Below, piece by piece: positions 3,160 to 23,349 of a DNA stretch of 64,000 nucleotides. The DNA lies in assembly GCA_029776225.1 (NCBI GenBank), contig JAKOTR010000043.1, forward strand, positions 39,195 through 103,194. The letters run 5' to 3'. The translations under genes were made by a program, and so were the position numbers. Position 1 is the first letter of the stretch. Each line of letters begins with the position of its first letter. The stretch comes from Acidobacteriota bacterium (GTDB lineage Bacteria; Acidobacteriota; Terriglobia; Bryobacterales; Bryobacteraceae). Below the pieces are notes generated by a model. It saw only the letters and a list, made by a program, of their open reading frames with translations. It had not been told where the DNA came from and did no database searches.

Positions 3160-3843
3160 GTGTCAGCGCCGCAAAAAATGGAAACGTTCCGGCGCGTGCC
3201 GCTGTTCGCCGGGCTTACAGAAGAGGAACTGGCGTCTCTTGCCAGACGCGCGGTGGAAAAACGCTACTCCGCCGGCGAGGTGCTCTTCTATGAAGGCGAG
3301 CCGTGCACCGGGTTTTTCCTGATCGGGCAGGGATCGGTCAAGATCTACAAGACCTCGGGTTCCGGGCGCGAGATCATGCTGGCGATCGATACCGCCCCGT
3401 CCAGCGTGGCGGAGGTGCCGCTGTTTGACGGTGGTCCTTATCCGGCCACGGTGAGCGCGGTGAATGACGTGGTCGCCTACGTGGTGAGCAAGCAGGATTT
3501 CCATGCCGTGTGCCTGCAAAATCCCAACCTGCCTCTCAAAGTGCTGGCGGTGGTGGGGCGAAGGCTCAGGCACCTGGTGCGGATCGTGGAAAGCGTGACC
3601 TTCGGCAGCGTCCGCCAGAGGCTCGCGAGCGCGCTGCTGGAATTCGGCAACCAGGCCGGCTCGGACGTGTTCTCCCTCCCCGTTACCCACGAGGAACTCG
3701 CTTTGCGCCTCGGCACGGTGCGCGAAGTGGTCTCCCGAAATCTCAGCCGCTTTCAGGCCGAAGGCCTGCTGCGCGTCCAGCGGCGCGAGATCCATTTGCT
3801 GGACCGAGAGGGATTGCTCCGCGAGGCGGAAACCGAGTTGTAA
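3160..3843 (+). CDS. Crp/Fnr family transcriptional regulator (GTG start; alternative ATG at 3178)
   Basis: cNMP-binding-like N domain (LFAGLTEEELASLA...GEVLFYEGEP) and C-terminal HTH (THEELALRLGTVREVVSRNLSRFQAEGLL). Confidence 0.85.
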   Translation: MSAPQKMETFRRVPLFAGLTEEELASLARRAVEKRYSAGEVLFYEGEPCTGFFLIGQGSVKIYKTSGSGREIMLAIDTAPSSVAEVPLFDGGPYPATVSAVNDVVAYVVSKQDFHAVCLQNPNLPLKVLAVVGRRLRHLVRIVESVTFGSVRQRLASALLEFGNQAGSDVFSLPVTHEELALRLGTVREVVSRNLSRFQAEGLLRVQRREIHLLDREGLLREAETEL

Positions 3844-3867: not shown

Positions 3868-3881
3868 GTGACTTACGTCAC
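3868..3881. promoter_or_regulatory. Perfect dyad GTGAC-N4-GTCAC (FNR-box geometry), centred ~42 bp upstream of the hemerythrin ATG
   Basis: Sequence gtgacttacgtcac read directly. Same 14-bp dyad type recurs three times at 9059-9265. Confidence 0.5.
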
Positions 3882-3916: not shown

Positions 3917-4471
3917 ATGTACACCGTGGAACGACTGCTGCGCGTCTCACGGGGGGAAGAGAGCGCACGCACCACCATCGACTACCCTTTGGAGCATCTC
4001 GTGGCATGTCACCGGCGTATCGAGGAGCGCCTGGAGATGCTGGAACGCGCCGGCGCCCACCTTGCCGGACGCCCCGACGACGCCCTTGAGGCTATCGATG
4101 CCGCTTTTCGCTACTTCGACTCCAGCGGCGTGCTTCACACGGCCGACGAGGAGCAGAGCCTGTTTCCGCGGCTCCGCCCGCGCCTGCTGCCCGACGAGCT
4201 GGAGATGGTCGCCCGGCTCGACCGGGAGCACCGCGAAGCCGAGGCCCTTTACGCCGAGCTCAAGGCCGCCGTGGCGCGCCTTCGAAAAGATCCTCACAAC
4301 GAGCAGCTCGGAGAGGAGTACCGGAATCTTGTGAAGCGGTTCACCGAGCTGTACAACTCGCACATCAGGCTCGAGGACAACGAGCTCGTCCGCGTGGCGA
4401 AGCGAGACCTCACCCGCCAGGAACTGGACGCGATTTCCCGGGAAATGAAGCAGCGGCGGAATTTGTTCTGA
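3917..4471 (+). CDS. Hemerythrin-like (HHE cation-binding) domain protein
   Basis: H/E-rich helical signature (HLVACHRRIEERLE...DREHREAEALY...HIRLEDNEL). Confidence 0.7.
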   Translation: MYTVERLLRVSRGEESARTTIDYPLEHLVACHRRIEERLEMLERAGAHLAGRPDDALEAIDAAFRYFDSSGVLHTADEEQSLFPRLRPRLLPDELEMVARLDREHREAEALYAELKAAVARLRKDPHNEQLGEEYRNLVKRFTELYNSHIRLEDNELVRVAKRDLTRQELDAISREMKQRRNLF

Positions 4472-4959: not shown

Positions 4960-5847
4960 CTACTCGGGCTCGGGGTGGACGATGACGTCGGCGCCGGGCG
5001 CCACACTCTGAATCGCCCGCTCGATGTCCTCGGTCAATGCGTGCGCCGCGCGAAGCGACTGATCGCCGTCAACGAGCACGTGGACATCGACAAACAACCG
5101 GGGGCCGGAATAGCGAAGCCGCACGTTGTGGCAGTCCTTCACCCCTTCCACGGACTGGGCCGCCCCGGTGATCTTCTCCTCCAGGCCGGCCGGCGCGGTG
5201 TCGATCAGCGATGCAATGCTGCGCACCCCGAGCCTCACGCTGATCAGGATCACGATTCCCGCAACGATGATGGCGGCCACGGCGTCCGCCTGGCGCAGCG
5301 CTCCCAAGGCCGGCACCCGCTCCGAAATCAACACGCAGATGAGGCCGAGGATCACCACCGCCGAGCTCCAGATGTCCGTGCTGAAATGCAGCGCGTCAGC
5401 TTCGAGCGCCTGGCTGTTGTACTTGCGGGCCGCCCGGTAGAGCACACGGGAGCGCGAGGCGTCGACGATGATCGAGGTGATCATAACGGCAAACGACCAG
5501 AACGTCACCTCGATTTCGATTCTCTGTTCGATGAGGCGGCCTGCGGCGCCGTAGATAATCCACACGCACGTCGCCAGCAGCAGCATGGTCTCGAACAGGG
5601 CCGAGAGGTTCTCTACTTTTCCGTGGCCGTAGGTGTGCGAGCGGTCGGCGGGCTTACCCGAGATCCGCACCGAAACCCAGGTCATCAGGGCGGCTACAAG
5701 GTCCAGCCCGGAGTGCGCCGCCTCAGCGAGAATTCCAAGGCTGCCTGTGGCGGCGCCCACCAGGGCTTTGAAGGTAGTTAAACCGATGGCCGCCAGCACC
5801 GAACTCGCGGCGGCCCACCGTTTTTCTTTTTCCGCCCGTTCTGTCAA
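4960..5847 (-). CDS. Cation diffusion facilitator (CDF) family transporter; TTG start overlapping the upstream gene's stop
   Basis: CDF signatures (SLGILAEAAHSGLDLVAAL, HTYGHGKVENL). C-terminal cytoplasmic domain. Four-base overlap with the upstream gene implies co-transcription. Confidence 0.8.
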   Translation of the reverse strand: MTERAEKEKRWAAASSVLAAIGLTTFKALVGAATGSLGILAEAAHSGLDLVAALMTWVSVRISGKPADRSHTYGHGKVENLSALFETMLLLATCVWIIYGAAGRLIEQRIEIEVTFWSFAVMITSIIVDASRSRVLYRAARKYNSQALEADALHFSTDIWSSAVVILGLICVLISERVPALGALRQADAVAAIIVAGIVILISVRLGVRSIASLIDTAPAGLEEKITGAAQSVEGVKDCHNVRLRYSGPRLFVDVHVLVDGDQSLRAAHALTEDIERAIQSVAPGADVIVHPEPE

Positions 5848-8171
5848 GTCGAAAGGCCGATTTGGCAGAGGTGTTTCTCAAGCACCGTCTTTTCTTGGGC
5901 GAGATAGGCGCGGTTCCTGCGCGTGAGCTCGTCGAAATCAACCTTGTGAGCGTCGAACTCCGGTCCGTCCACGCAGGCGAACTTAACCTCCCCGCCTACG
6001 GTAACGCGGCAGCCGCCGCACATGCCAGTACCGTCCACCATGATTGGATTCAGGCTGGCAAAAGTAGGCACACCCCATTCGCGGGTGAGTTCGGCCGCAG
6101 CGCGCATCATCGGGATTGGCCCGATGACGTGGACAACACCGGGAGTGATTCCGCTCTGCTCCTTCCACGCGCGCATAAGCTGAACTACATTCCCATGGAA
6201 CGCGCCCGATCCGTCGTCAGTGGCCCAATGGACTTCATCGGCCACGGAGCGCAATTCTTCATCCAGGATAATATGGGCCGTTGACCGCGCTCCGCAGAGC
6301 GCAATCACGCGGTTGCCGGCCTCATGGAACGCCCGCACGACGGGCAGCAGTTCGGCCGTCCCCACACCGCCGGCGACGCAGAGCGCCGTGCCGACTTTTT
6401 CGATGGTGGCGGGAAGGCCCAGCGGGCCGAGCAGGTCCGCGATGTAATCGCCTGCCTCCAGCGACAGCGTCTGCCGCGAGGTTTTTCCGAGCGCCTGAAC
6501 AACGAGCCTGATGGTGCCCGCCGCGGGGTCGCCGTCCACCAGCGTGAGCGGGATGCGCTCGCTCTCGGGAGTGGGCCGCAGAATGATGAACTGCCCGGCC
6601 TTCCAGTGCCTGGCGATTTCGGGCGCCTCGATTTCCAGGCTGGCGATCTCAGGCGTGAGCAGGCGCTTGGAAACTACGCGGTTGCCGCGGCCATTGGTGG
6701 CGGTGGGTATCCCGGAAACGGCAACGCTCTTTGCTTTCGGGCGCAGTTCGCGGTCGATAGCCTCGGCGGCCGCCCGGCCGTCGCGCATCGCCAGGATCAC
6801 GGTAGCCCCGCCGCGCACAACATCCCCTCCGGCGTAGACGTTCGGCAGGCTGGTCCTGCCGGCCTCGTCGATGACAATCTTACCGCGTTTCGTAATCAGT
6901 GTCGGGGTGGCGCGCTGGACGGTGGGGTTCGGGCTCTGGCCGATTGCCATCACCACGGTATCCACCGGCATGCGGTACTCGGAACCGGGTATCGGAACGG
7001 GCCTGGGGCGCCCGGACTCGTCCGGCTCTCCAAGCTGCATGCGCTGGACTTCCATTTCCTTCAACACGCCGTTTTCGTCCCCGAACAGCCGGACGGGCAC
7101 GGCCAGAAACTCGAACTGGACGCCCTCCTCCTCGGCGTGCTCGATCTCTTCGAGGCGGGCGCGCAGCTCGGCCCGGCCGCGGCGGAACATGATGATGCTT
7201 TCACTGCCCAACCGCTTGGCCCAGCGCGCGGCGTCCATCGCGGAATTGCCGCCGCCGATGACCACGGTCCGCTTGCCCACGAGGACCGGCGTGTCACTCG
7301 CCGGGAATTCGTAGGCCTGCATGAGGTTGATCCGGGTCAAATACTCGTTGGCGGTATACACGCCCACCAGGTTCTCTCCCGGAATGCCCATCAGGTGGGG
7401 CAGGCCGGCGCCGGTGCCGATGAACACGGCGGAGTAGCCCCACTCGAAAAGCTCATCGATCGTGGCGGTCTTGCCCACGATGAAGTTGGTGCGGAACTCG
7501 ACTCCAAGCGCGCGAAGCCGCTCGATCTCCTCGTCGATAATCTGGCGCGGCAAGCGAAATGGCGGGATGCCGTAGGCCAGGACGCCGCCCAGCCTGTGCA
7601 GCGCCTCGAAAACCGTGACGCCGTAGCCTTTGCGCACAAGGTCGAAGGCGGCGATCAGCGAGGCGGGTCCGCTGCCGACCAGCGCTACTTTCAGGCCGTT
7701 GGGCGGTTCCACAGGGGGAAGCCGCCGGTCGCTCGAACTCCGCTGATAATCCGCCAGGAAACGTTCGAGCGAGCCGATCGCCACCGGCTCCAGCTTCGTT
7801 TTCGGATTGCCGAGCAGGCAAGCCTTCTCGCAGAACAACTCGTGCTGGCAAACGCGTCCACAGATGCCCGGAAATGGTGTGTACTTGCTGATGGTTTCAA
7901 AAGCGCCACCGAAGTCGCCCTCCACCATGCGGGCGATCACACTCTTGATATCGATGTGGAGCGGGCAGGCTTCCACGCATTTCGGATCCCTGCAATTCAG
8001 GCAGCGGAGCGCTTCGGTCCAAGCCTGCTCCTGGTCGAACCCCAACGCCACTTCTTCACACGTAGTGGTCCGCTTCACCGGATCCAGCAACGGAAGTTGC
8101 TGGCGCGGAATTTTGGGGTTGCGCTTGCGTTTTACCGTTGGCACAGGGGTCACGTCAGCTTTTTCGGGCAT
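5844..8171 (-). CDS. Fused NfnB/GltD-like (N-term) and NfnA/SudB/PyrK-like (C-term) oxidoreductase, single 775-aa polypeptide
   Basis: N-term: Cys clusters (CEEVALGF..CLNCRDPKCVEACP; CGRVCQHELFCEKAC) and two Rossmann folds (VALVGSGPASLIAAFDL; VVIGGGNSAMDAA) as in GltD/NfnB. C-term: FNR-like FAD/NAD module ending in a 2Fe-2S motif (MCGGCRVTVGGEVKFACVDGPEF). Confidence 0.8.
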   Translation of the reverse strand: MPEKADVTPVPTVKRKRNPKIPRQQLPLLDPVKRTTTCEEVALGFDQEQAWTEALRCLNCRDPKCVEACPLHIDIKSVIARMVEGDFGGAFETISKYTPFPGICGRVCQHELFCEKACLLGNPKTKLEPVAIGSLERFLADYQRSSSDRRLPPVEPPNGLKVALVGSGPASLIAAFDLVRKGYGVTVFEALHRLGGVLAYGIPPFRLPRQIIDEEIERLRALGVEFRTNFIVGKTATIDELFEWGYSAVFIGTGAGLPHLMGIPGENLVGVYTANEYLTRINLMQAYEFPASDTPVLVGKRTVVIGGGNSAMDAARWAKRLGSESIIMFRRGRAELRARLEEIEHAEEEGVQFEFLAVPVRLFGDENGVLKEMEVQRMQLGEPDESGRPRPVPIPGSEYRMPVDTVVMAIGQSPNPTVQRATPTLITKRGKIVIDEAGRTSLPNVYAGGDVVRGGATVILAMRDGRAAAEAIDRELRPKAKSVAVSGIPTATNGRGNRVVSKRLLTPEIASLEIEAPEIARHWKAGQFIILRPTPESERIPLTLVDGDPAAGTIRLVVQALGKTSRQTLSLEAGDYIADLLGPLGLPATIEKVGTALCVAGGVGTAELLPVVRAFHEAGNRVIALCGARSTAHIILDEELRSVADEVHWATDDGSGAFHGNVVQLMRAWKEQSGITPGVVHVIGPIPMMRAAAELTREWGVPTFASLNPIMVDGTGMCGGCRVTVGGEVKFACVDGPEFDAHKVDFDELTRRNRAYLAQEKTVLEKHLCQIGLST

Positions 8172-8309: not shown

Positions 8310-9008
8310 TTAGAGTTCCCTCAGTGCCCTGGGGAACAGCACGTTGTTTTCCAGGTGAATGTGCTGGTGAAGGTCCGCTTCCAGTTCCTGCAGTCCCGTG
8401 TAGAGGGCGCGGAAGGTCGCGCAGGCATCGGGCGGAAGCGTATAGTCGCTGGTGATTTTGCGCATCTGTGCAAGCGCTTCCCCGGCGCTGTCGTGCTCAT
8501 GGATCATCATCCGGATCGGATTTTCGATATGGCCGAAGGGCATCGGCTCGGGCGGGCGCCCCTCCTGGCGCGCGCGCTCGGCTGACTCGATGGCGGGGAA
8601 CAGGATGAACTCTTCCTTCCTGAGGTGAGTCAGAAGCTCGTTTTGCAGCCCCTCAAAAACTTCTTGGAGCCTCTTCAGCATCTCCCCGTGCGCCGCACTA
8701 TGAGCCTCGATGACGCGGGCGAGCCTGGCATCGAGCGCGGGCAGTTCCGCTTTCAGATATTCGTGGTGTGTCGAGACGATGTGGTCGGTCAGTTCGCAGA
8801 GCGCGGCTTTGGTCCAGTCCTTCTCCGGCGCGCGGGCGGCAGCCGCCTGCACTTCGGCCAGAACGGCTTCGGGTGAGAGGCCTCGCTCGCGGCAGACTTC
8901 CTCGAGCGGCCGGTTCCCGCCGCAGCAGTAATCGATCTTGTACTTCTCAAAGACCCGCACGGATGCCGGCTGTTCAGCCGCAATCTCCCCAACGGTTTGC
9001 CGATTCAT
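8310..9008 (-). CDS. ric: Iron-sulfur cluster repair di-iron protein (RIC / ScdA / YtfE family)
   Basis: N-terminal DYCCGG motif and hemerythrin-like His/Glu repeats (HHEYLKAELP...HEHDSAGE...HQHIHLENNVLFP). Confidence 0.85.
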   Translation of the reverse strand: MNRQTVGEIAAEQPASVRVFEKYKIDYCCGGNRPLEEVCRERGLSPEAVLAEVQAAAARAPEKDWTKAALCELTDHIVSTHHEYLKAELPALDARLARVIEAHSAAHGEMLKRLQEVFEGLQNELLTHLRKEEFILFPAIESAERARQEGRPPEPMPFGHIENPIRMMIHEHDSAGEALAQMRKITSDYTLPPDACATFRALYTGLQELEADLHQHIHLENNVLFPRALREL

Positions 9009-9058
9009 TTACATTCCACCTCCATCCCCATGCTAGGGCGCAAGGGCCGGCGCGCTCA

Positions 9059-9072
9059 GTGACGGCGGTCAC
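9059..9072. promoter_or_regulatory. Perfect GTGAC-N4-GTCAC dyad, ~57 bp upstream of the ric start
   Basis: Sequence gtgacggcggtcac read directly. Confidence 0.45.
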
Positions 9073-9175
9073 AAGGGCGCAAGGGGGCAGCGTGCTCAGG
9101 GACGGGGTCACAAGGCGCAACGCGCGGCGGGGCGCGGTAACAAGGGTCACAAGGGCGCAAAGGACAGCGGGCGCG

Positions 9176-9189
9176 GTGACGAGTGTCAC
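9176..9189. promoter_or_regulatory. Perfect GTGAC-N4-GTCAC dyad
   Basis: Sequence gtgacgagtgtcac read directly. Confidence 0.45.
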
Positions 9190-9251
9190 AAGACCGCAAG
9201 GGATGGCGGGCTTGCTGAGATGGGGCACAAGGCGCCAAGCATGTCGGCGCG

Positions 9252-9265
9252 GTGACGAGTGTCAC
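9252..9265. promoter_or_regulatory. Perfect GTGAC-N4-GTCAC dyad centred 41.5 bp upstream of the radical SAM ATG (9300)
   Basis: Sequence gtgacgagtgtcac read directly. Spacing to the ATG matches the hemerythrin site, suggesting class-II-like activation and short or absent leaders. Confidence 0.5.
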
Positions 9266-9299
9266 AGAAAAGTCCGGCGTTCGGGATTACCCTCAAAGC

Positions 9300-10379
9300 A
9301 TGAGAGACTTCTCGCAGGCGCCCTTTCTGGTGATCTGGGAGGTGACTCAGGCCTGCGATTTGGCCTGCGTGCACTGCCGCGCCTCGGCCGAACCCCGCCG
9401 GCATCCGCTCGAACTCACCACCGAAGAAGGGTTTCGATTGCTAGATGAAGTCCGGGAGTTCGGCGATCCGCTGGTGGTTTTTACGGGCGGCGACCCGCTG
9501 AAGCGCCCGGACCTGTTCGAACTTCTGAAATACAGCGTGGACCTGGGGTTGCGGACCACCGTGACGCCGAGCGCCACGCCGCTGCTGACCGCCGAAGCCA
9601 TCGAGCGGTTTCGCGACTGCGGCGTTTCGCGCATGGCCGTCAGCGTCGACGGACCGGACGCGGCCACGCACGACGATTTCCGCCGCGTGCCGGGGTCCTT
9701 TGACCGCACCATGTTCGCGCTGGAGCACGCCCGGCGCATCGGGCTTGAAACCCAGGTCAACACCACCGTGACCCGGCTGAACAGGGACACGCTGCCGCGG
9801 ATAGCCAATCTGGTCGCCGCGTCGGGCGCCCGTCTATGGAGTGTCTTTTTCCTGGTTGCGACCGGCCGCGCCCTCCGCACCGATGACCTGGACGCGGACG
9901 CCTACGAGGAAGTCTTTGCCTACCTCTACGAACTGTCGAAGACCGCGCCTTTCGACATCAAGACCACCGAAGCGCAGCATTACCGCCGCTACGTCGCGCA
10001 ACAGAGGAAGCGTGAGGGCGGCGCCGCAGGTTCTCCCAAGGCGCCGGCCGGCCCCATCCAGCGCCAGGCGGGCATCAACGACGGCAAGGGGTTTGTCTTC
10101 ATTTCCCACACGGGGGAGATCTATCCCAGCGGCTTTCTGCCCGTGTCAGGGGGAAACGTCCGGCAGGATTCGCTGGTTGAGGTCTACCGGACGTCCCCGC
10201 TGTTTGTGGCGTTACGGAACCCGGACCGGCTGCGGGGCAAGTGCAGAATCTGCGAATACAGGAACTTGTGCGGGGGATCGCGGTCGCGGGCTTACGCGCT
10301 GACGGGGGACTGGCTGGCGGAGGACCCCAAGTGCGCGTACGAGCCGCGCGACAGGCATGTTGCACTTGTTAACAGTTAG
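9300..10379 (+). CDS. Radical SAM / SPASM-domain protein (AhbD/NirJ/PqqE-like architecture), function unknown
   Basis: CDLACVHC (CX3CX2C) after VIWEVTQA. GGDPL SAM-binding motif. C-terminal Cys-rich SPASM region (CRICEYRNLCGGSRSRAYALTG...CAYEP). Start placed at ATG 9300 (the ORF's 9252 start lies inside the dyad site). Confidence 0.8.
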   Translation: MRDFSQAPFLVIWEVTQACDLACVHCRASAEPRRHPLELTTEEGFRLLDEVREFGDPLVVFTGGDPLKRPDLFELLKYSVDLGLRTTVTPSATPLLTAEAIERFRDCGVSRMAVSVDGPDAATHDDFRRVPGSFDRTMFALEHARRIGLETQVNTTVTRLNRDTLPRIANLVAASGARLWSVFFLVATGRALRTDDLDADAYEEVFAYLYELSKTAPFDIKTTEAQHYRRYVAQQRKREGGAAGSPKAPAGPIQRQAGINDGKGFVFISHTGEIYPSGFLPVSGGNVRQDSLVEVYRTSPLFVALRNPDRLRGKCRICEYRNLCGGSRSRAYALTGDWLAEDPKCAYEPRDRHVALVNS

Positions 10380-10614
10380 GATTGTTGCGCTTTGCGACTT
10401 TTGACCCATGGGTGAGGTATTTTGCCCCACTCATTGCGGAGAATCGCACCCGTTCCTCCGAATCCTCATTTGAGGCTCCTCTGCATCCCCATTGAAAAAT
10501 AAAAAGATTCCATACTTTCCGATCTGTATTAAGATGCATGAATGTTGGAGGTACGCCTGCTCGGAATCGCAGCGCACTATTGTGAGTTGGCTAGGTTATC
10601 TGGAGGATGCGTTT

Positions 10615-12657
10615 ATGCGCTCACGGTTTTCTTTTTCGATCGCGGTCAAACTCGTGCTTGTCCTCGCCTTCCTGGCGGGTTCCGCAATTCTGTTAAGTAG
10701 TTCCGATAAGCCCGCGTTCACCGCGATGGACAAGGCGTTCTACGCCGACGCCAATGCTATCAACTTCGTCCGGCCGGGCCTGGACATCAAAATCGAGTCG
10801 GCCAGCATTGAAGCCGACGGCACGATCAAGGCCCGGATCAAGGTGACGGACCCCAAGGGCCTGCCGCTGGACCTCGATGGGGTTACGACGCCGGGAACCA
10901 TTTCGACGCGTTTCGTGATCGGTGTCATTCCGAATGGGCAGAAGCAGTACATCTCCTACATCACCCGGCAGGTGACCAGCACGATCACGAATCAGACCGC
11001 CACCCAGGCCACTTACGATTCCGGCGGCACATTCACCAAAGAGGCCGACGGGGTCTACACATACACCTTCGGGGCGAAAGCGCCGGCCAATTTTGACCGC
11101 AGCGCGACGCACAGCATCGGCGTATGGGCGGCCCGCGACCTGAGCGAGTTCGATCTGGATGCCGTTGCGAATTACGACTCCGACGTGTTCCACTTCGTTC
11201 CCAACGGCAGCCCGGTGACGGTGACGCGCGACGTAATCCGCACCCAGAGCTGCAACAAGTGCCACGATCCGCTGTCGGCGCACGACGAACGGCAGGGCAT
11301 TGAACTGTGCAATATCTGCCACAACCCCCAGAGCAGCGATCCCGACACCGGCAACACAATCGACATGGTTGTGATGACCCACAAGATCCACATGGGCAAG
11401 GATCTGCCGAGTGTGAAGGCGGGCGGCAAGTATCAGCTCATTGGCTACCGCAACACGGTGTACGACTATTCCACTGTGGGCTTCCCGGCCGATGCCCGGC
11501 GCTGCACCTTCTGCCACGAGCAGAACACTGGCGCGGCGCAGGCTACCGCTTATCTGAAGCCGAGCCGCGTGGCCTGCGGCTCCTGCCACGACAACGTGAA
11601 CTTCGCCACGGGCGAGAACCACGTGAACCTTCCGCAGCTCAGCGATAACCTGTGCGCGAATTGCCACATCCCGCAGGGCGAGCTGGACTTCGACGCCTCG
11701 GTTATCGGCGCGCACACGATTCCGGAGTTCTCGAACGAGCTGCCCGGCACGGTCTTTGAGATCGTCGACGTTCGCGACGGCGAGGCGGGCAAGAATCCGA
11801 CCGTAACCTTTACGGTGAAGGATAAGGCCGGCAACCCGGTCACGGACATTTCCGGGATGCGCCTATCGCTCGTTCTGGCCGGGCCGACGACGGACTACTC
11901 CAGCTACGTTTCGGAGACCGCCAACGGCGCGCAGGGCTCGGGCGGAACCTATACCTACACCTTCAAGCAGGCGATCCCGGCTGATGCCAAGGGCACCTTC
12001 GCGGTGGGCATCGAAGGATACCGCACTGTAACCCTGCTCGAGGGGACCACGCGGCAGATGAGCGTTCGCGATGCCGGCATGAACAAGGTGTATTACTTCT
12101 CCGTGGACGGCTCGCCGGTCACTCCGCGCCGGCAGGTGGTGAGCCTGGAGAAGTGCAACTCCTGCCATGCGTCGCTCTCCGCGCACGGCGGCAATCGCAA
12201 CACGATCGAACAGTGCGTGCTTTGCCACAACCCGCTTAAGACCGACGCCGCCGCCCGGCCCGCCGAAGAGAAGCCGGACATGACCATCCAGATGGCCTAC
12301 ATGATCCACCGGATCCACACCGGCGAGGACAGCCCGTCCGAAATCGTGATCTACGGGCACAACAGCACCCGTTACGACTTCGGCCACGTCCGGTATCCGG
12401 GTGACAGGCGCAATTGCAACGCTTGCCACGTCAACGGTTCCGAACAGCTTCCGCTTTCGGAAAGCCTCCTGAACGTCAACAACCCGCGGGGGGTGTTGAA
12501 CCCGATGGGACCGGCTACGGCGGCCTGCACCGGTTGCCACACCAGCATAGCGGCGGCTTCGCACGCTTTGTCGAACACGACCCAGCTTGGGGAAGCCTGC
12601 GCCGCGTGCCACAAGACCGGCAACGAATTCAGCGTGCCGAAGGTACACGCACGTTAG
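10615..12657 (+). CDS. Decahaem c-type cytochrome, OmcA/MtrC-like (outer-membrane/extracellular type)
   Basis: 10 CXXCH motifs arranged 5 + (~150-aa haem-free beta-rich domain) + 5. Signal peptide MRSRFSFSIAVKLVLVLAFLAGSA. GGAGGA RBS 7 nt upstream of ATG 10615. The ORF-track 10492 start is a TTG extension into AT-rich promoter DNA. Confidence 0.75.
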   Translation: MRSRFSFSIAVKLVLVLAFLAGSAILLSSSDKPAFTAMDKAFYADANAINFVRPGLDIKIESASIEADGTIKARIKVTDPKGLPLDLDGVTTPGTISTRFVIGVIPNGQKQYISYITRQVTSTITNQTATQATYDSGGTFTKEADGVYTYTFGAKAPANFDRSATHSIGVWAARDLSEFDLDAVANYDSDVFHFVPNGSPVTVTRDVIRTQSCNKCHDPLSAHDERQGIELCNICHNPQSSDPDTGNTIDMVVMTHKIHMGKDLPSVKAGGKYQLIGYRNTVYDYSTVGFPADARRCTFCHEQNTGAAQATAYLKPSRVACGSCHDNVNFATGENHVNLPQLSDNLCANCHIPQGELDFDASVIGAHTIPEFSNELPGTVFEIVDVRDGEAGKNPTVTFTVKDKAGNPVTDISGMRLSLVLAGPTTDYSSYVSETANGAQGSGGTYTYTFKQAIPADAKGTFAVGIEGYRTVTLLEGTTRQMSVRDAGMNKVYYFSVDGSPVTPRRQVVSLEKCNSCHASLSAHGGNRNTIEQCVLCHNPLKTDAAARPAEEKPDMTIQMAYMIHRIHTGEDSPSEIVIYGHNSTRYDFGHVRYPGDRRNCNACHVNGSEQLPLSESLLNVNNPRGVLNPMGPATAACTGCHTSIAAASHALSNTTQLGEACAACHKTGNEFSVPKVHAR

Positions 12658-12762
12658 TTGATCCGGGTATAACTAGTAAACGTGCGCACACAACCTATGA
12701 AGCACACGGTCTTGCCGCCGTGGCTGTCGAACGCAAACCGCATTCCTCCTCCTCCTCCTCCA

Positions 12763-13737
12763 ATGCCGATCGGGAGGCCCTGGGCGGGCCTCCCGTGTGC
12801 GTTCGCAGCCATGGCGGCTCTTGTACTTTTTTCCGTTTCCCTCGCGGCCCAGCAGGACCAGGAGAGCGAGCAGACTCAGCAGGCCCAACAGACCCAGCAA
12901 CAGTTGCCTCCGGGCTACGCAGGTTCAGACGTCTGTCTGGGGTGTCACGACGACCTTGGAAAAGCGTTCACCAGAAATCCGCACCACCTTGTCGAGACGG
13001 GCAAGGCCAAGACCAAGACGAACTGGCAGGGCATGGCTTGCGAGTCCTGCCACGGGCCGGGCGCCAAGCACGCGGAAACCGTCTCGCCGTCCGACATCAT
13101 CAACCCGGCTAAGCAGACCGCGGCGAAGGCGAGCCAGAGTTGCCTGGCGTGCCATCTGAATAATCCCATCCACGCCGGGTGGGCCCGCAGCAGCCACAAC
13201 AAGAACCAGACTCCCTGTACCTCCTGCCATGCGATTCACAAGGGCCAGGAGGCGCTGCGTCCGGCGAGGTTCATGGAGATCAACAAGCTCTGCGCGAGTT
13301 GCCACACCTCGGTCTGGGCCCAGTTCGCCAAACCTTACAAGCACCGGCTGGACGTAGGGGCGATGTCGTGCACGGATTGTCACAATCCTCACGGGACGTT
13401 TCTGCCGGGCTCCGTCCGGACGGTGGCCGCCAACGAGCGTGCGTGCTACAAGTGCCACCCGGACAAGACCGGCCCGTTCCCGTTCCCGCATGCTCCGGTG
13501 CAACTGGAGGGCTGCGGGACGTGCCATGAGCCGCACGGCTCAGCGAACCCGCGGATGCTGACGCGCTCCGAGGTGCGGTTCGTGTGCCTGGAGTGCCACT
13601 CGAATATCACCGCGGGTAAAACGATTGGCGGGGTGCCGCCGGCATTTCACGATATCAGGAGCCCGCGTTTCCAAAACTGCACCATATGCCACACCAAGAT
13701 TCACGGTTCCTATGTGGATCCGGGGCTGGAGCGATAG
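12763..13737 (+). CDS. Periplasmic decahaem c-type cytochrome, MtrA/DmsE/PioA-like (start uncertain: 12697, 12763 or 12811)
   Basis: 10 closely spaced CXXCH motifs in ~300 aa. Signal peptide. Low-complexity Q-rich linker after the signal. Confidence 0.75.
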   Translation: MPIGRPWAGLPCAFAAMAALVLFSVSLAAQQDQESEQTQQAQQTQQQLPPGYAGSDVCLGCHDDLGKAFTRNPHHLVETGKAKTKTNWQGMACESCHGPGAKHAETVSPSDIINPAKQTAAKASQSCLACHLNNPIHAGWARSSHNKNQTPCTSCHAIHKGQEALRPARFMEINKLCASCHTSVWAQFAKPYKHRLDVGAMSCTDCHNPHGTFLPGSVRTVAANERACYKCHPDKTGPFPFPHAPVQLEGCGTCHEPHGSANPRMLTRSEVRFVCLECHSNITAGKTIGGVPPAFHDIRSPRFQNCTICHTKIHGSYVDPGLER

Positions 13738-13739
13738 CG

Positions 13740-15743
13740 ATGAGAGCACTTCTGATTATCCTGATCGCGCTTCCGCTTGCGGCCCAGGCGCCGGTCGGTT
13801 CGCAGGCGCCCGTACCGCCGCCGCCGAAGGACGCCATTCCTCTGGTGCAGCAGCCGGACCTCACCGCTCCGCCCGACGAGCCTTTCCTCACCGGCAACCT
13901 GGATGTCGGCTACCGCTGGGTCAGTGGCGTGGGCGGCGACTTCAACACCTATCGCAGCGTCGTGAACCTCGGCGACGGACCCAGGCTGTTCAACCTCGAC
14001 GCGGTCATCGTGCCGCCGGCGTGGAAGTTTGCCGACCGGATCCAGGTGAACGCGAACAACTGGGGCGGGGATCCGTATAACTTCGCCCGGGTGAGCGCGC
14101 GCAAGCTGGGTGTCTACGACTTCTACTGGAACTACCGCAACATCGCGTACTTCAATTTCCTGCCGTCGTTCGCCAATCCGAACCTGGAGCGCGGCATTTT
14201 TCTCAACCAGCGGGGCTTCGACACCTTCAAGCGGATCAACGACGCCGAGCTGGTGCTGAGGCCGGGGCGGAGCATCACTCCGTACGTCGCCTACAGCCGC
14301 AGCGGCGACCGCGGCACGGGCACCACGAACATTGTTCTGGAAAGCAACGAATACACCGTGCCGGACCGGATCGATAACAACGTCAATATCTACCGCGCCG
14401 GCAGCAGGTTCCAGTTCAACCGGTACAACCTGACGCTGGAAGCCGGCGGGATCTCCTACGACAACGACCAGCGCGTTGAGATCGGAGATACGCCGAATTT
14501 CGGCAACCGCACGACTCCCTTCTTGGGGCAGACTCTGTTTCTGACGCAGGGTTTGCAGAGCTACAACGTCAGCGGCAGCGGCGTCTTCACGCGGGGGATG
14601 TTTGCCGCGAACCCGGTGAATTGGGCCGATGTGTTCGGGCAATTCGAGTTCAGCCAACTGAAGAGCACGACCCGCTTCAGCGAGAACGCCGCCGGGAACC
14701 TGGTGAACCTGGCGGCGGTATCGTTCTTCAACGAACTGATCCGGACGGCGGACTCGCGCGTCAAGCAGCCGCACCCGTCGGGCCAGATCGGGGCCGAATT
14801 GCGGCCCACGCGATGGCTGCGCATCCTGGAGTTCGCCTCCACCAACCGCCTGCACAACGCCGGTACAGAACTGCTGATTGACCGCATGCTGTTTGCGGGC
14901 CTTCCGCCGACGGAAGAGGTCGTGAACCTGGCCGAGCGGCTGGAAGTGACCTACAACCAGCAGCAGGTGAACTTCCTGTTCGACGTCACGCCGAGGCTCA
15001 TGCTTCGAGCCGGGCACCGGTACGTCTGGGGAGAAGCGGAGGCGCCCGCCGCCCTTATCCTGGGGGGCGTGGGAACGGAATCGGCCAAACTGCGCAGGAA
15101 CGTGGCGCTGGCCGGAGCCACCTGGCGCAGCCCGCGCAAGCTGCGCGTCACGGTGGAGTACGAAGGCTCGCCGGGCGACCGTTCGTTCTTCCGCACCAGT
15201 GTGAACGAGTACCAGAAGGGGCGCGTGATGGCGCGCTATCAGGCGCTGCCCTCGCTGGCGCTAACCTTCAATTTCGGAATCTTCGACAACCACAACCCGG
15301 CGCCGAGCCAGTACGATTTCCAGAGCCGGGACGCCTCGCTTTCCGCCTACTGGGCGCCCCAGGGAGGCAAGCGGGTGAGTTTCATTGCCGAATACGCGCG
15401 GGCAACCGTGAGCTCGGATATCAGTTTCGTGGTGCCGAACACGCTTCAGGAGGCGCTCTCGGTTTATCGGGAACGTTCGCACACGGGACTGCTGCTTGCG
15501 GAATTCCCGCTTCCGGGGCGCGGGGTGTTCCAGCCCAGGCTGGATGTCGGGGGATCGCTGTTCTATTCGACGGGCACGCGTCCCTCGCGGTACTACCAGC
15601 CGTTCGGCAGGTTCCGCCTGCCCCTCGGCGAGCACGTCGCCTGGTACGGCGAGTGGCGGTGGTACGGCTTCACCCAGCCGACGTTCCTGTTTGAGGGATT
15701 CCGCTCCAACCAGGTGATCACCGGCCTGCGGTTCTTCATGTAG
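13740..15743 (+). CDS. Putative outer-membrane beta-barrel porin, MtrB/PioB-like (~667 aa)
   Basis: Signal peptide MRALLIILIALPLAAQA. No Cys. Rich in Y/F/N/G/S/T/R with aromatic C-terminus (GLRFFM). Sits directly downstream of two decahaem genes in mtrC-A-B order. Confidence 0.55.
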   Translation: MRALLIILIALPLAAQAPVGSQAPVPPPPKDAIPLVQQPDLTAPPDEPFLTGNLDVGYRWVSGVGGDFNTYRSVVNLGDGPRLFNLDAVIVPPAWKFADRIQVNANNWGGDPYNFARVSARKLGVYDFYWNYRNIAYFNFLPSFANPNLERGIFLNQRGFDTFKRINDAELVLRPGRSITPYVAYSRSGDRGTGTTNIVLESNEYTVPDRIDNNVNIYRAGSRFQFNRYNLTLEAGGISYDNDQRVEIGDTPNFGNRTTPFLGQTLFLTQGLQSYNVSGSGVFTRGMFAANPVNWADVFGQFEFSQLKSTTRFSENAAGNLVNLAAVSFFNELIRTADSRVKQPHPSGQIGAELRPTRWLRILEFASTNRLHNAGTELLIDRMLFAGLPPTEEVVNLAERLEVTYNQQQVNFLFDVTPRLMLRAGHRYVWGEAEAPAALILGGVGTESAKLRRNVALAGATWRSPRKLRVTVEYEGSPGDRSFFRTSVNEYQKGRVMARYQALPSLALTFNFGIFDNHNPAPSQYDFQSRDASLSAYWAPQGGKRVSFIAEYARATVSSDISFVVPNTLQEALSVYRERSHTGLLLAEFPLPGRGVFQPRLDVGGSLFYSTGTRPSRYYQPFGRFRLPLGEHVAWYGEWRWYGFTQPTFLFEGFRSNQVITGLRFFM

Positions 15744-21699: not shown

Positions 21700-23349
21700 C
21701 TACCCCAGTTGAACCAGGACCGGCTTTTCGGTCTTCAGCCCCAGCATCTCCAACTGCTTCTCGAACGGCATCGAATACTTGCGCTCGATCTTTTCCCGGT
21801 AGGTCGGCCCGGCGTTGTAGGCGCAGAACGGATAGATCAACCCGTTCGGGGCCGCATAGTGGATCACGCAGCGCTTCACCCGCTCGATGTCGTAGTTGTA
21901 GGCATCCATGAAGTGCATGCCCGCAACCATCAGCGTCTTGTAGGTGTAGCCTTGCTCCTCCATCTTGCCGCGGCCGTATTCCTTGTCCATCAGCCCCTGA
22001 AGCGTCTCCAGGAATTTGGCGAACGTAAGGCCCTCGGGCGCGCGGTCCTCGTGATAGTGCTTGCGCAGCGAGTTCCACGCCTTCATCTTGGAGAAGAACT
22101 TGATCCGCTGTTTGCCGAGGGTCCGCGACATCATGTCGAGATCCTGGAGAAACGCGCCGATGTCGACAAACCGGGTGATCGGCGTGGCCTTCTTGTTCTT
22201 GTCCACGAAGAGGTAGGTGCCCATCGAACAGTGCGGGTTCGGCGTCAGAGTGGGAATTTCCTCTCCGCGCAGCGCGCCGAGGAACTTGGAGAACGGCGCC
22301 ACGCAGGACAGCGGGAACCAGTCGTCGAACGGATCGCAGATGCCCGTCTGCTCGTGCACCGCCCGCGCTACGTCCGACATCGTGAACCGCTTGGCCTCCA
22401 GCTCCTTGCGCGAAATCCGCCCCGTGAAGGAAACCGGCTGGTAGCTGATGGCGCTCACCACGTCGATATTCTCCAGAGCGAGCCGGAGAATGTCGCCGAT
22501 CTGGTGATCGTTGAATCCCTTCACGATCGTCGGCACGAAGCAGATCTTCATCCCGGCCTTGCGGACGTTCTCGATGCACTTGAGTTTCTTGTCCAGCAGG
22601 GACTCGCCGCGGGTGCGCTGGTAGATGTCCTCGCAAACGCCGTCGAACTGAAGGTACAGCGTGTGCAGGCCGGCCTCTTTCGCCTTCATGGCGAACTCGA
22701 GGTCCGTGAACATGATGCCGTTGGTGGCGCACTGGATGTGCGAGAAGCCCATCTCCTTGGCCATCCTCAGGACTTCGAAGAAGTGCGGATAGATGGTCGG
22801 TTCGCCGCCTGAGAACTGTACGATGCGGTTCGCTACCGGTTTTTCGTTGCGGAGCGCGGTGAGCATGCGGCGGACCTGCTCCAGGCTCGGCTCATAGAGG
22901 TACCCTGCCGCGTTGGCATTGGCGAAGCAGACCGGGCAGGTCAGGTTGCAGCGGTTCGTCAGGTCCACGTTCGAGAGCACCGTGTGGCTCATGTGCATCG
23001 AGCACAGGCCGCACTGGTCCGGGCAGCGGCTCGCGTTGGGAATCGCCGGGTTGCTGACCCCCCGGTTGTCTCCGAAGCTCCAGTTCTCCATCTTGAGATA
23101 CAGCCGGACGTCCGAGTAGACCATGTCCTTGAAATAGCCGTGCTGCGGGCAGGTCTTCTCCATCATGACCTTCCCGTCCTCCTCGAACACCCGGGCGTCA
23201 ATGACCCGTATACACTCCGGGCACAGCGACTGCGTAATCTTCGGCAGACCGCGGCGGATCGGCTCGATCGGCGAGCCTCCGAAGGTGGTTTCCGGCTGGA
23301 TGATCTTGAAATCCTTCGCTGTCTCCGGCGAAAAGGTTTGGGTACTCAA
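21700..23349 (-). CDS. Radical SAM protein with N-terminal Cys-rich/zinc-ribbon region and tandem CX3CX2C motifs; candidate tetraether/membrane-spanning lipid synthase (Tes/GDGT-MAS)-like
   Basis: CPEC...CPQH, then CPDQCGLC and CNLTCPVC 20 aa apart. VQFSGGEPTIYPHF SAM motif. TTG start with AGGAGG 8 nt upstream. Confidence 0.7.
   Translation of the reverse strand: MSTQTFSPETAKDFKIIQPETTFGGSPIEPIRRGLPKITQSLCPECIRVIDARVFEEDGKVMMEKTCPQHGYFKDMVYSDVRLYLKMENWSFGDNRGVSNPAIPNASRCPDQCGLCSMHMSHTVLSNVDLTNRCNLTCPVCFANANAAGYLYEPSLEQVRRMLTALRNEKPVANRIVQFSGGEPTIYPHFFEVLRMAKEMGFSHIQCATNGIMFTDLEFAMKAKEAGLHTLYLQFDGVCEDIYQRTRGESLLDKKLKCIENVRKAGMKICFVPTIVKGFNDHQIGDILRLALENIDVVSAISYQPVSFTGRISRKELEAKRFTMSDVARAVHEQTGICDPFDDWFPLSCVAPFSKFLGALRGEEIPTLTPNPHCSMGTYLFVDKNKKATPITRFVDIGAFLQDLDMMSRTLGKQRIKFFSKMKAWNSLRKHYHEDRAPEGLTFAKFLETLQGLMDKEYGRGKMEEQGYTYKTLMVAGMHFMDAYNYDIERVKRCVIHYAAPNGLIYPFCAYNAGPTYREKIERKYSMPFEKQLEMLGLKTEKPVLVQLG

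What the first reader, a model, noticed from the sequence alone, without database searches (positions are those of the whole stretch)
9300..10379. Orphan radical SAM/SPASM enzyme under the putative NO/O2-stress promoter
An AhbD/NirJ/PqqE-style radical SAM (CDLACVHC plus GGDPL plus C-terminal multi-Cys SPASM domain) with no neighbouring precursor peptide or ahb/nir/pqq partners. It is instead driven by a promoter carrying the same dyad as hemerythrin and RIC. A radical SAM/SPASM enzyme in a nitrosative-stress regulon is not an established pairing. It could act in repair, alternative haem handling or cofactor remodelling under stress.
Basis: partly seen in the sequence, partly recalled or inferred. 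Interest (0 to 1): 0.5.

Follow-up and report, generated by a model that had tools for sequence, protein, structure and literature searches.

The report
Anaerobic haem synthase under NO-stress control
The "orphan" radical SAM gene is very probably an oxygen-independent enzyme for the last step of haem synthesis (an AhbD-type coproheme decarboxylase), switched on with nitric-oxide defence genes; relatives in a salt-loving archaeon and in Thermus are already known to be wired this way, so it is a useful re-annotation rather than a new kind of system.

Summary
The ORF at 9300-10379 encodes a 359-aa radical SAM enzyme, standing alone and divergent from a RIC/YtfE gene. Its promoter carries the dyad GTGAC-N4-GTCAC, which also precedes RIC and a hemerythrin gene next to a CRP/FNR-family regulator (4 perfect copies; 0.07 expected).

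The protein is a member of NCBIfam TIGR04053 (475.6 bits, cut-off 395). It is 57% identical over its full length to Haloferax volcanii HVO_2144 "AhbD", also a TIGR04053 member. Deleting that gene abolishes only anaerobic growth, and protohaem rescues it. HVO_2144 sits between nirK and norB. The Thermus thermophilus orthologue ("nirJ") lies between nirS and nirM and needs DnrS, DnrT and NsrR for expression.

In 80 Bryobacterales relatives the neighbouring genes vary, but regulation is conserved. One clade keeps the dyad, which there also precedes qNOR, NnrS-like, RIC, hemerythrin, DUF438 and DUF2249 genes. The other clade uses a sigma-54 promoter with a fixed upstream palindrome.

Its "alternative haem handling" guess is about right.

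This is a new member of a known kind, of modest interest.

The parts
9300..10379 (+). Gene for a TIGR04053-family radical SAM enzyme, an AhbD-type putative O2-independent coproheme decarboxylase (haem b synthase)
   Evidence: TIGR04053 scores 475.6 bits against a cut-off of 395. AhbD TIGR04545 scores 364 against 500. It is 57% identical over 350 aa to H. volcanii AhbD P0303. Invariant residues are C19/C23/C26 and C315/C318/C324/C345, with S277 and S327 at AuxI positions. The AF2 model (pLDDT 82.9) has the SPASM/twitch fold of PqqE, SuiB and BlsE.
9252..9265 (.). Operator dyad GTGACGAGTGTCAC of the rSAM promoter; its centre lies 41.5 nt upstream of the ATG
   Evidence: The same dyad sits at the same distance in relatives. 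There is no SD-like motif upstream, which suggests a leaderless, class-II-type activated promoter (inference).
9035..9266 (.). Tandem array of a 39-nt unit (about 5.4 copies) carrying dyads at 9059-9072, 9137-9150 (1 mismatch), 9176-9189 and 9252-9265, plus degenerate copies
   Evidence: The closest relative has one dyad in a 98-nt spacer, so the array is a window-specific expansion of 195 nt (5 units).
9059..9072 (.). Operator dyad serving the divergent RIC promoter; its centre lies 57.5 nt from the RIC ATG
   Evidence: The single shared dyad in L092 has the same 57.5-nt geometry.
8310..9008 (-). RIC/YtfE/ScdA di-iron protein for Fe-S cluster repair, transcribed divergently
   Evidence: TIGR03652 scores 251.5 bits against a cut-off of 204.7. 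Pfam finds ScdA_N and Hemerythrin.
3160..3843 (+). CRP/FNR-family transcription factor, the candidate regulator that binds the dyad. It has no FNR-type Cys cluster, and its recognition helix reads R-E-x3-R as in CRP.
   Evidence: Pfam finds cNMP_binding and HTH_Crp_2. It matches no specific equivalog. DNR and CooA are among its PDB relatives. Orthologues lie next to the rSAM gene in L004-6, L019, L035, L039, L070 and L080.
3868..3881 (.). Dyad GTGACTTACGTCAC upstream of the hemerythrin gene; its centre lies 42.5 nt from the ATG
3917..4471 (+). Hemerythrin-domain (HHE) protein, a member of the same regulon
   Evidence: Pfam Hemerythrin, E = 1.6e-17. A related hemerythrin carries the dyad in L035.

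Best explanation
The gene encodes an AhbD-type radical SAM haem b synthase.

Proposed chemistry (inferred from AhbD):
- The N-terminal [4Fe-4S] cluster (C19/C23/C26) cleaves SAM.
- The resulting 5'-deoxyadenosyl radical abstracts a hydrogen from the propionates on rings A and B of Fe-coproporphyrin III (coproheme).
- Each propionate loses CO2 and becomes a vinyl group, giving protohaem without O2 or H2O2.
- A single C-terminal auxiliary cluster (C315/C318/C324/C345) carries away the surplus electron.

Proposed role (inferred): in this acidobacterium (Bryobacterales), a phylum reported to make haem by the coproporphyrin-dependent route, the enzyme would replace the peroxide-dependent ChdC when oxygen is absent and NO is present.

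Proposed regulation: transcription is activated by a CRP/FNR-family regulator (3160-3843) bound to GTGAC-N4-GTCAC centred 41.5 nt upstream of the start codon. This is a class-II-like position and the mRNA is probably leaderless. The same operator drives RIC and a hemerythrin here. In relatives it also drives qNOR, NnrS-like, DUF438 and DUF2249 genes.

Shown: family membership, orthology to H. volcanii AhbD, conservation of the operator, and the regulon content.

Inferred: the enzymatic activity, the source of coproheme, NO as the signal, and the identity of the regulator.
For: Protein identity:
- TIGR04053 is above its cut-off and AhbD is the next best model.
- The protein is 57% identical over its full length to HVO_2144 = P0303 (UniProt D4GUU1, "Coproheme decarboxylase AhbD"), which is itself TIGR04053 at 500 bits.
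- The delta-ahbD mutant fails only in anaerobic growth, and protohaem rescues it (PMC5746218).
- The CX2CX5CX20C motif, with Ser at AuxI positions (S277, S327) and E224 in TTEA (my mapping, not aligned to M. barkeri AhbD), matches the AuxI-less AhbD type of non-methanogenic archaea (PMC10452713).

Context in other lineages:
- Haloferax and Halogeometricum: nirK and norB.
- Thermus: norCBH-nirS-[gene]-nirM plus an Rrf2 regulator.
- Bacillus: DUF438, DUF1858, nrdDG and FprA.

Operator:
- 30 of 81 loci have the dyad (29 of the 80 relatives plus the window), against a background of 0.08 per kb.
- All 6 members of the window's clade that lack a nearby dyad have one farther upstream, ahead of a cupin gene or norB.
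- In the 80 related loci, perfect dyads are 33 intergenic against 6 intragenic. They precede RIC, qNOR, NnrS-like, DUF438-hemerythrin-PAS, DUF2249 and hemerythrin genes.

Precedent and literature:
- hemN is a predicted member of the DNR/NnrR regulons (PMC1274295).
- Reviews propose an AhbD-like enzyme as the anaerobic substitute for ChdC (PMC10114771, PMC13564367).
- ChdC is reported in most Acidobacteria genomes (PMC10991733).

Supporting context: decahaem MtrCAB-like genes lie immediately downstream, which implies a high haem demand under anoxia.
Against: - No TIGR04053 member has been assayed in vitro, and NCBI still names the family as uncharacterised.
- The score against the curated AhbD equivalog model is below its cut-off (364 against 500).
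- I could not check whether this genome has ChdC/CpfC/CgoX, or alternatively AhbABC, so the coproheme supply rests on literature about the phylum.
- Thermus workers treat the orthologue as a haem d1 (NirJ) factor.
- In haloarchaea a CGCGG-family "rSAM-modified RiPP" gene lies near the orthologue.
- The signal sensed by the regulator (NO or anoxia) is inferred only from the regulon content.
- About half of the Bryobacterales orthologues use an unrelated sigma-54 control whose signal is unknown.
Confidence: 0.65

Rival explanations
1. A NirJ-type enzyme for haem d1 biosynthesis serving a cd1 nitrite reductase, as the Thermus orthologue is annotated.
For: In T. thermophilus the orthologue lies between nirS and nirM and is called NirJ (PMC5748679, PMC7694296). 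The protein shows clear but weaker similarity to the NirJ and NirJ2 models.
Against: NirJ TIGR04051 scores 171.8 against a cut-off of 515, and NirJ2 scores 225 against 500. No nirS or nirK lies near the gene in the window or in the 80 related loci. H. volcanii is a nirK-type denitrifier without cd1, yet it needs the orthologue, and protohaem rescues the mutant (PMC5746218). The Thermus assignment rests on homology only.
Confidence: 0.06
2. A peptide- or protein-modifying SPASM maturase, for example acting on a CGCGG-family (TIGR03995) target as the NCBIfam name of that family suggests.
For: The closest solved folds are RiPP maturases and PqqE. CGCGG-family genes lie close to the orthologue in H. 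volcanii and Halogeometricum.
Against: No CGCGG-motif protein or other conserved small ORF occurs in the window, the 80 Bryobacterales loci, or the Thermus, Bacillus and Deinococcus loci. The immediate neighbours are not conserved. The AuxI site typical of peptide maturases is missing. The haloarchaeal mutant is rescued by haem.
Confidence: 0.07
3. A lipid-bridging enzyme of the Gms (GMGT synthase) type. Gms is an AhbD homologue found in Acidobacteria next to tes.
For: Gms proteins are AhbD homologues present in Acidobacteria (PMC11214058). The window holds a Tes-like rSAM at 21700-23349.
Against: The defining N-terminal COG4001 domain of about 100 aa and the length of at least 400 aa are absent: the protein is 359 aa and the rSAM core starts at residue 10. 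The gene is 11 kb from the Tes-like gene and is not clustered with it. The NO-regulon context is unrelated to lipid synthesis.
Confidence: 0.02
4. Another tetrapyrrole or cofactor reaction specific to NO stress, for example anaerobic removal or remodelling of nitrosylated haem, rather than de novo haem synthesis.
For: The gene is co-regulated with repair and detoxification genes (RIC, hemerythrin, qNOR) rather than with haem biosynthesis genes. The family falls below the AhbD equivalog cut-off.
Against: The protohaem rescue of the H. volcanii mutant, also under DMSO respiration without nitrogen oxides, points to synthesis rather than repair (PMC5746218). There is no precedent for such chemistry in this clade.
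Confidence: 0.12

Closest known systems
Haloferax volcanii AhbD (HVO_2144, UniProt D4GUU1), a member of TIGR04053
   Same: 57% identity over the full length. Same family model, same Cys pattern, and the same lack of AuxI cysteines. Both are stand-alone genes inside an NO/denitrification gene set with a shared palindromic operator (PMC5746218).
   Different: The host is an archaeon that makes coproheme through AhbABC, whereas here the source is presumably the coproporphyrin-dependent pathway. The operator (CGAA-N4-TTCG) and the regulator type differ. The neighbours there are nirK, halocyanin and norB; here they are RIC and MtrCAB-like genes.
Thermus thermophilus "NirJ" of the nirS-nirJ-nirM nic cluster
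   Same: TIGR04053 member (482.8 bits), 52% identical. It has its own promoter that requires DnrS, DnrT and NsrR, with a palindrome whose core is TGAC-N4-GTCA about 42-50 nt upstream of the start codon, the same core and position as here (PMC5748679).
   Different: It is embedded in a cd1 nitrite reductase operon and is assumed to act in haem d1 maturation. The site is attributed to an Rrf2 (NsrR) protein, not to a CRP-family one.
AhbD haem b synthase of Methanosarcina barkeri and Desulfovibrio (TIGR04545)
   Same: Radical SAM core and the CX2CX5CX20-38C auxiliary motif. It is the best-scoring characterised family (364 bits).
   Different: The score is below the equivalog cut-off. [quoted passage not shown] The window protein has only the AuxII site.
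hemN (CgdH) under DNR/NnrR in denitrifying proteobacteria
   Same: The regulatory logic is the same: a radical SAM, O2-independent haem biosynthesis enzyme placed in an NO-responsive CRP/FNR-family regulon (PMC1274295).
   Different: It is an unrelated radical SAM family with a different substrate (coproporphyrinogen III) and a different haem pathway (protoporphyrin-dependent).
HcpR/DNR/NnrR NO-responsive CRP/FNR regulators
   Same: Same domain architecture, a 5-4-5 palindromic operator (HcpR2: GTAAC-N4-GTTAC), and a regulon holding RIC (dnrN), norB and nnrS (PMC1274295).
   Different: It matches no specific equivalog model. The half-site GTGAC and the acidobacterial host are not described in the sources I read. 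The sensing mechanism is unknown.

Membership tests
TIGR04053 radical SAM/SPASM family | Whole-protein score above NCBIfam's curated cut-off (395 bits) with full-length coverage | tested here: met
   475.6 bits, residues 3-349 on profile positions 2-366 of 366. An identical protein, P0001, is named TIGR04053 by NCBI.
AhbD haem b synthase (TIGR04545 equivalog) | Score above the curated cut-off of 500 bits | tested here: not met
   364.4 bits. The genetically characterised H. volcanii AhbD also fails it, at 338.6 bits, so that model covers only the full-SPASM subtype.
AhbD (functional class) | CX3CX2C radical SAM motif plus the C-terminal CX2CX5CX20-38C auxiliary-cluster motif | tested here: met
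   C19-X3-C23-X2-C26 and C315-X2-C318-X5-C324-X20-C345 are invariant across Bryobacterales, haloarchaea, Thermus, Bacillus and Deinococcus. The motif is as defined in PMC10452713.
AhbD (functional class) | Converts coproheme to protohaem with SAM, without O2 | not testable with these tools
   Only genetic evidence exists, for the 57%-identical orthologue (PMC5746218).
AhbD (functional class) | The host genome provides coproheme (CPD enzymes CgoX/CpfC, or AhbABC) | not tested
   The window and the 80 loci hold no such genes. Literature reports ChdC in most Acidobacteria (PMC10991733).
NirJ (haem d1 biosynthesis, TIGR04051) | Score above the cut-off of 515 bits, and linkage to nirS and other nir d1 genes | tested here: not met
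   171.8 bits. No NirS or NirK hit in the window or the 80 loci.
PqqE (TIGR02109) | Score above the cut-off of 381 bits, and pqqABCD neighbours | tested here: not met
   119.1 bits. No pqq genes nearby.
Full SPASM-domain maturases | Seven or eight C-terminal cysteines forming the AuxI and AuxII clusters | tested here: not met
   Only four C-terminal cysteines are present. AuxI positions are Ser (S277, S327). Pfam SPASM is not reported.
Gms GMGT synthase | N-terminal COG4001 domain of about 100 aa, length of at least 400 aa, clustering with tes or mss | tested here: not met
   The protein is 359 aa with no extension. The Tes-like rSAM is 11 kb away and not adjacent. Criteria are from PMC11214058.
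rSAM paired with a CGCGG-family RiPP (TIGR03995) | A CGCGG-family gene in the neighbourhood | tested here: not met
   tblastn and a six-frame motif search found none in the window, the 80 Bryobacterales loci, or the Thermus, Bacillus and Deinococcus loci. It is present only in the haloarchaeal loci.
NO-responsive CRP/FNR regulators (DNR/NnrR/HcpR type) - regulator 3160-3843 | cNMP-binding domain plus Crp HTH, no FNR Cys cluster, palindromic operator upstream of NO-detoxification genes | tested here: met
   Domains. The protein has only two Cys (C49, C118), read from the sequence. The dyad lies upstream of RIC, qNOR, NnrS-like, hemerythrin, DUF438 and DUF2249 genes.
NO-responsive CRP/FNR regulators | Binds the dyad and responds to NO | not testable with these tools
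   Inferred only from co-localisation of the regulator gene with dyad-bearing loci.

The most novel reading that the evidence does not exclude
TIGR04053 enzymes as a whole are the missing oxygen-independent coproheme decarboxylase of organisms that use the coproporphyrin-dependent pathway (Acidobacteria, Deinococcus-Thermus, Bacillus). They have been recruited again and again into NO-response regulons through unrelated regulators: a CRP-type dyad, a sigma-54 promoter with its enhancer-binding protein, Rrf2/NsrR, and a haloarchaeal HTH regulator. If so, the Thermus "NirJ" and the NCBI label "uncharacterised TIGR04053" are mis-assignments or under-assignments. It would also mean that anaerobic haem supply is treated by cells as part of NO defence rather than of the oxygen (FNR) response.
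Probability: 0.5. Interest if true: 0.55.

Novelty: new member of a known kind. Interest (0 to 1): 0.35.

Why it matters
- A 2024 paper states that the oxygen-independent substitute for ChdC in the coproporphyrin-dependent pathway is "yet unknown" (PMC10965808). Reviews only suggest an AhbD-like enzyme.
- Linking TIGR04053 to the genetically characterised H. volcanii ahbD gives a concrete candidate. TIGR04053 is a large family: more than 8000 database hits and 1288 50%-identity cluster representatives at E <= 1e-30.
- The consistent placement of this family in NO/denitrification gene sets, across two domains of life, makes the candidate easy to test.
- The same link suggests that the Thermus "nirJ" annotation should be revisited.
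- It defines a CRP-family NO regulon and its operator in Bryobacterales, abundant soil and peat Acidobacteria whose regulation is little studied.
- It does not reveal a new type of system.

Tried and rejected
- The longer GTG start at 9252 was rejected. It would place the operator inside the coding region, and homologues align from residue 1-3 of the ATG-9300 product.
- No riboswitch or other RNA element lies around the gene: Rfam found nothing at E <= 1.
- The simple scan found no sigma-70 consensus promoter and no terminator between the genes. Its one terminator-like hit, at 9460-9474, lies inside the ORF.
- The 39-nt repeat is not a dispersed element; its copies are confined to the spacer.
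- Conserved gene neighbours as a clue to function led nowhere. The neighbours are highly variable, and tmk/holB/aroA are the commonest.
- A search for a sigma-54 enhancer-binding protein near the sigma-54-type loci found none that recurs.
- The upstream palindrome has GT-N6-AC spacing, not the NorR GT-N7-AC spacing.
- A literature search for TIGR04053, TIGR03995 or "CGCGG family" returned nothing.
- The PQQ, mycofactocin, anSME and sactipeptide families all score far below their cut-offs.
Full report
**1. What is in the sequence**

The ORF at 9300-10379 (+) starts at ATG 9300 and encodes 359 aa. It carries CDLACVHC (C19/C23/C26), TGGDPL, and a C-terminal motif C315-X2-C318-X5-C324-X20-C345. 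A RIC/YtfE gene at 8310-9008 (-) is transcribed divergently (TIGR03652, 251.5 bits against a cut-off of 204.7).

Further upstream lie three more elements:
- a CRP/FNR-family regulator at 3160-3843 (+);
- a dyad at 3868-3881;
- a hemerythrin gene at 3917-4471.

The dyad GTGAC-N4-GTCAC occurs perfectly four times in the 64 kb, at 3868, 9059, 9176 and 9252. The chance expectation is 0.07, and 0 of 100 shuffles reached 4.

Two refinements apply:
- The C-terminal domain has only four cysteines, so there is one auxiliary-cluster site, and Pfam's SPASM model does not report it.
- The 291-nt RIC-rSAM spacer is a tandem array of a 39-nt unit that carries the dyad.

**2. Family assignment**

Scores against NCBIfam:

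| Model | Bits | Cut-off |
|---|---|---|
| TIGR04053 | 475.6 | 395 |
| AhbD, TIGR04545 | 364 | 500 |
| NirJ2 | 225 | 500 |
| NirJ | 172 | 515 |
| PqqE | 119 | 381 |

Solved structures are only distant relatives: PqqE, BlsE and SkfB. An AF2 model (pLDDT 82.9) matches PqqE, SuiB, BlsE and anSME, as reported for AhbD models (PMC10452713). The window comes from a Bryobacterales acidobacterium.

**3. A characterised orthologue exists**

A tblastn against annotated plasmids found TIGR04053 genes in several lineages:
- Thermus thermophilus megaplasmids;
- haloarchaeal replicons;
- Deinococcus ficus;
- Bacillus cereus-group plasmids.

The Haloferax larsenii gene led to P0303. P0303 is H. volcanii DS2 ADE02283.1, UniProt D4GUU1, "Coproheme decarboxylase AhbD". 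NCBI names it TIGR04053, and it scores 500 bits on that model and 338.6 on TIGR04545. Its locus holds nirK, HVO_2142, DUF2249, the rSAM gene, a halocyanin and norB, which identifies it as HVO_2144.

Kosugi et al. 2017 (PMC5746218) report three things about this gene:
- Protohaem restores DMSO-respiring growth fully; denitrifying growth was restored only partially, and only when haem was supplied from a DMSO stock.
- The gene shares the palindrome CGAA-N4-TTCG with the denitrification promoters.

The window protein is 57% identical to P0303 over 350 residues (E = 4e-130). Across Bryobacterales, haloarchaea, Thermus, Bacillus, Deinococcus, Eremiobacterota and Elusimicrobia the same residues are invariant. 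These include S277 and S327 at positions where full-SPASM AhbDs have AuxI cysteines. This pattern (Ser at two AuxI positions; E224 in the TTEA motif may be the third, though I did not align to M. barkeri AhbD) fits the AuxI-less AhbD subtype that Fix et al. describe for non-methanogenic archaea (PMC10452713).

**4. Context in other lineages**

- In T. thermophilus JL-18 the gene lies in norC-norB-norH-nirS-[TIGR04053]-nirM, next to an Rrf2 regulator and DUF542 and cupin genes.
- This gene is the published "nirJ". Its own promoter needs DnrS, DnrT and NsrR. The proposed site, CTTGACCNNGGTCATGG, lies about 50 nt upstream of the start codon (PMC5748679).
- In the sequence the Thermus palindrome TTGACC-CC-GGTCAT is centred 42.5 nt from the ATG. 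It shares the core TGAC-N4-GTCA with the window dyad.
- In Bacillus mycoides the neighbours are DUF438 and DUF1858 (divergent), nrdDG, a YwiC-like gene and FprA.
- In Halogeometricum they are nirK, norB, two DUF2249 genes, a halocyanin and a CGCGG-family gene.
- In Eremiobacterota they are a second rSAM and a GAF-hemerythrin.
- In D. ficus the neighbours are unrelated to NO or denitrification: UvrA, a cytochrome P450, sirohaem genes (CbiX/SirB, CobA) and sulfate-assimilation genes.

So the family is linked to NO, denitrification or anaerobiosis genes in several lineages of both domains, though not in every one.

**5. Regulation in Bryobacterales**

In 80 related loci the neighbouring genes are not conserved, but the upstream region is.

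The window's clade keeps the dyad:
- 29 of the 80 related loci, 30 of 81 with the window, have the dyad within 300 nt. The background is 0.08 per kb.
- The six members of this clade without a nearby dyad have one 400-750 nt upstream, or upstream of norB in L003. In L007 it sits ahead of a small cupin gene that overlaps the rSAM start; in L003 it sits ahead of norB.
- The dyad centre lies 40.5-42.5 nt from the start codon in 13 of 27 loci.
- SD-like motifs are rare in this clade, 7 of 27, against 28 of 29 in the other clade.
- I read this as class-II-type activation of leaderless transcripts. That is an inference.

Perfect dyads in these loci are 33 intergenic against 6 intragenic. Besides the rSAM gene they precede these genes:
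- RIC;
- qNOR;
- an NnrS-like protein with a weak DUF1858 match;
- DUF438-hemerythrin-PAS;
- DUF2249;
- hemerythrin;
- a Fer4_5 membrane protein;
- the CRP-family regulator gene itself.

This content matches the NO-responsive DNR/NnrR/HcpR regulons reconstructed by Rodionov et al. (PMC1274295). That paper also places hemN, the radical SAM O2-independent haem enzyme, under DNR/NnrR. It describes the HcpR2 operator GTAAC-N4-GTTAC, which has the same 5-4-5 layout.

The window regulator has R-E-x3-R in its recognition helix, as CRP does. It has no FNR cysteine cluster (sequence).

The other clade, at least 31 loci, has a -24/-12 sigma-54 promoter about 40 nt upstream of the start codon. It also has a palindrome, TGGGKSA-N2-TSMCCCA, fixed at -119.

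**6. Interpretation**

The most economical reading is an AhbD-type, O2-independent coproheme decarboxylase that supplies protohaem when the peroxide-dependent ChdC cannot work.

- Acidobacteria are reported to carry ChdC, that is, the coproporphyrin-dependent pathway (PMC10991733, PMC5095920).
- Reviews propose an AhbD-like enzyme for the anaerobic step (PMC10114771, PMC13564367).
- A 2024 paper still calls that enzyme unknown (PMC10965808).
- Co-expression with RIC makes sense for an enzyme with NO-sensitive Fe-S clusters.
- Decahaem MtrCAB-like genes lie directly downstream, here and in L092, L093, L069 and L030. They imply a high anaerobic demand for haem.
- I could not verify the haem pathway of this genome.

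**7. Rivals**

- NirJ/haem d1: the model score is far below its cut-off, no nirS or nirK lies near the gene in Bryobacterales, and a nirK-type haloarchaeon needs the orthologue for protohaem.
- RiPP maturase with a CGCGG target: the partner is absent outside haloarchaea.
- Gms lipid synthase, an AhbD homologue present in Acidobacteria (PMC11214058): the defining N-terminal domain is absent.
- A different NO-specific tetrapyrrole reaction cannot be excluded without biochemistry.

**8. Verdict**

The finding is real and the dyad link is strong. However, the gene falls into a family with a genetically characterised member, and the pairing of an anaerobic radical SAM haem enzyme with NO or denitrification regulons has clear precedents.

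It is a new member of a known kind. Its value lies in annotation (TIGR04053 = AhbD-type haem synthase; Thermus "nirJ" re-examined) and in defining an acidobacterial NO regulon. Interest is 0.35.

Noticed in passing
window 9035-9266; compare L092 6903-7000 and L093 1177-1268: The RIC-rSAM spacer holds about 5.4 tandem copies of a 39-nt unit that includes the operator dyad. The closest relative (92% identical rSAM, same synteny) has a 98-nt spacer with one shared dyad, 41.5 nt from the rSAM ATG and 57.5 nt from the RIC ATG. The window has therefore gained 195 nt (5 units). Each promoter now has its own operator copy at the original distance, and spare copies lie in between.
   Followed up: partly
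L014-L078 (about 31 or more of the 80 related loci), upstream of the rSAM orthologue: A second regulatory class: a sigma-54 -24/-12 promoter (TGGYN-N7-TGCW) about 40 nt upstream of the start codon, plus a palindromic upstream site TGGGKSA-N2-TSMCCCA fixed at -119. No enhancer-binding protein gene lies nearby, and the spacing differs from NorR sites. A Fer4_5 membrane protein carries this site in L052 and the CRP-type dyad in L008.
   Followed up: partly
window 10492-15743 (+): An OmcA/MtrC-family decahaem cytochrome (TIGR03507, 535 bits), a DmsE/MtrA-type decahaem cytochrome and a weak MtrB/PioB-like porin lie directly downstream of the rSAM gene. Together they look like an extracellular electron-transfer conduit in an acidobacterium. 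The same adjacency to the rSAM gene is seen in L092, L093, L069 and L030.
   Followed up: partly
window 21700-23349 (-): A second radical SAM protein (549 aa) has an HMPTM N-terminal zinc ribbon (PF23545). I noted it as possibly Tes/GDGT-MAS-like, the kind of enzyme implicated in membrane-spanning lipid synthesis in Acidobacteria, but did not compare it directly.
   Followed up: no
window 5844-8171 (-) and 4960-5847 (-): Downstream of RIC on the same strand lie a 775-aa fusion and a CDF cation-efflux transporter whose gene overlaps it. The fusion joins a GltD/NADPH-glutamate-synthase-like part to a PyrK-like FAD/NAD and [2Fe-2S] part. The same order is seen in L092. It is unclear whether they form an operon with RIC; the gap is 138 nt.
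   Followed up: no
L085 12845-13165 (H. volcanii) and L091 9081-9407 (Halogeometricum): A CGCGG-family "putative rSAM-modified RiPP" protein (TIGR03995, 135.5 bits) is encoded inside haloarchaeal denitrification clusters, close to the TIGR04053/ahbD gene. Its rSAM partner and its function are unknown. It is absent from the bacterial loci examined.
   Followed up: partly
L007 7636-8004, and similar positions in L011 and L024: In L007 a small cupin gene lies between the dyad and the rSAM gene and overlaps its start by 4 nt. L011 and L024 have near-identical sequence immediately upstream of the rSAM start, so they probably share this arrangement. Thermus also has a cupin ("AraC ligand-binding") gene in its nsrRST cluster. 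A cupin may be a recurrent partner in this regulon.
   Followed up: no
L057 and L059, upstream of the rSAM orthologue: The CRP-type dyad (GTGAYCGTGGTCAC) overlaps the -24 element of a sigma-54 promoter (TGGTCAC-N6-TGCA). This could be chance or an intermediate between the two regulatory classes.
   Followed up: no
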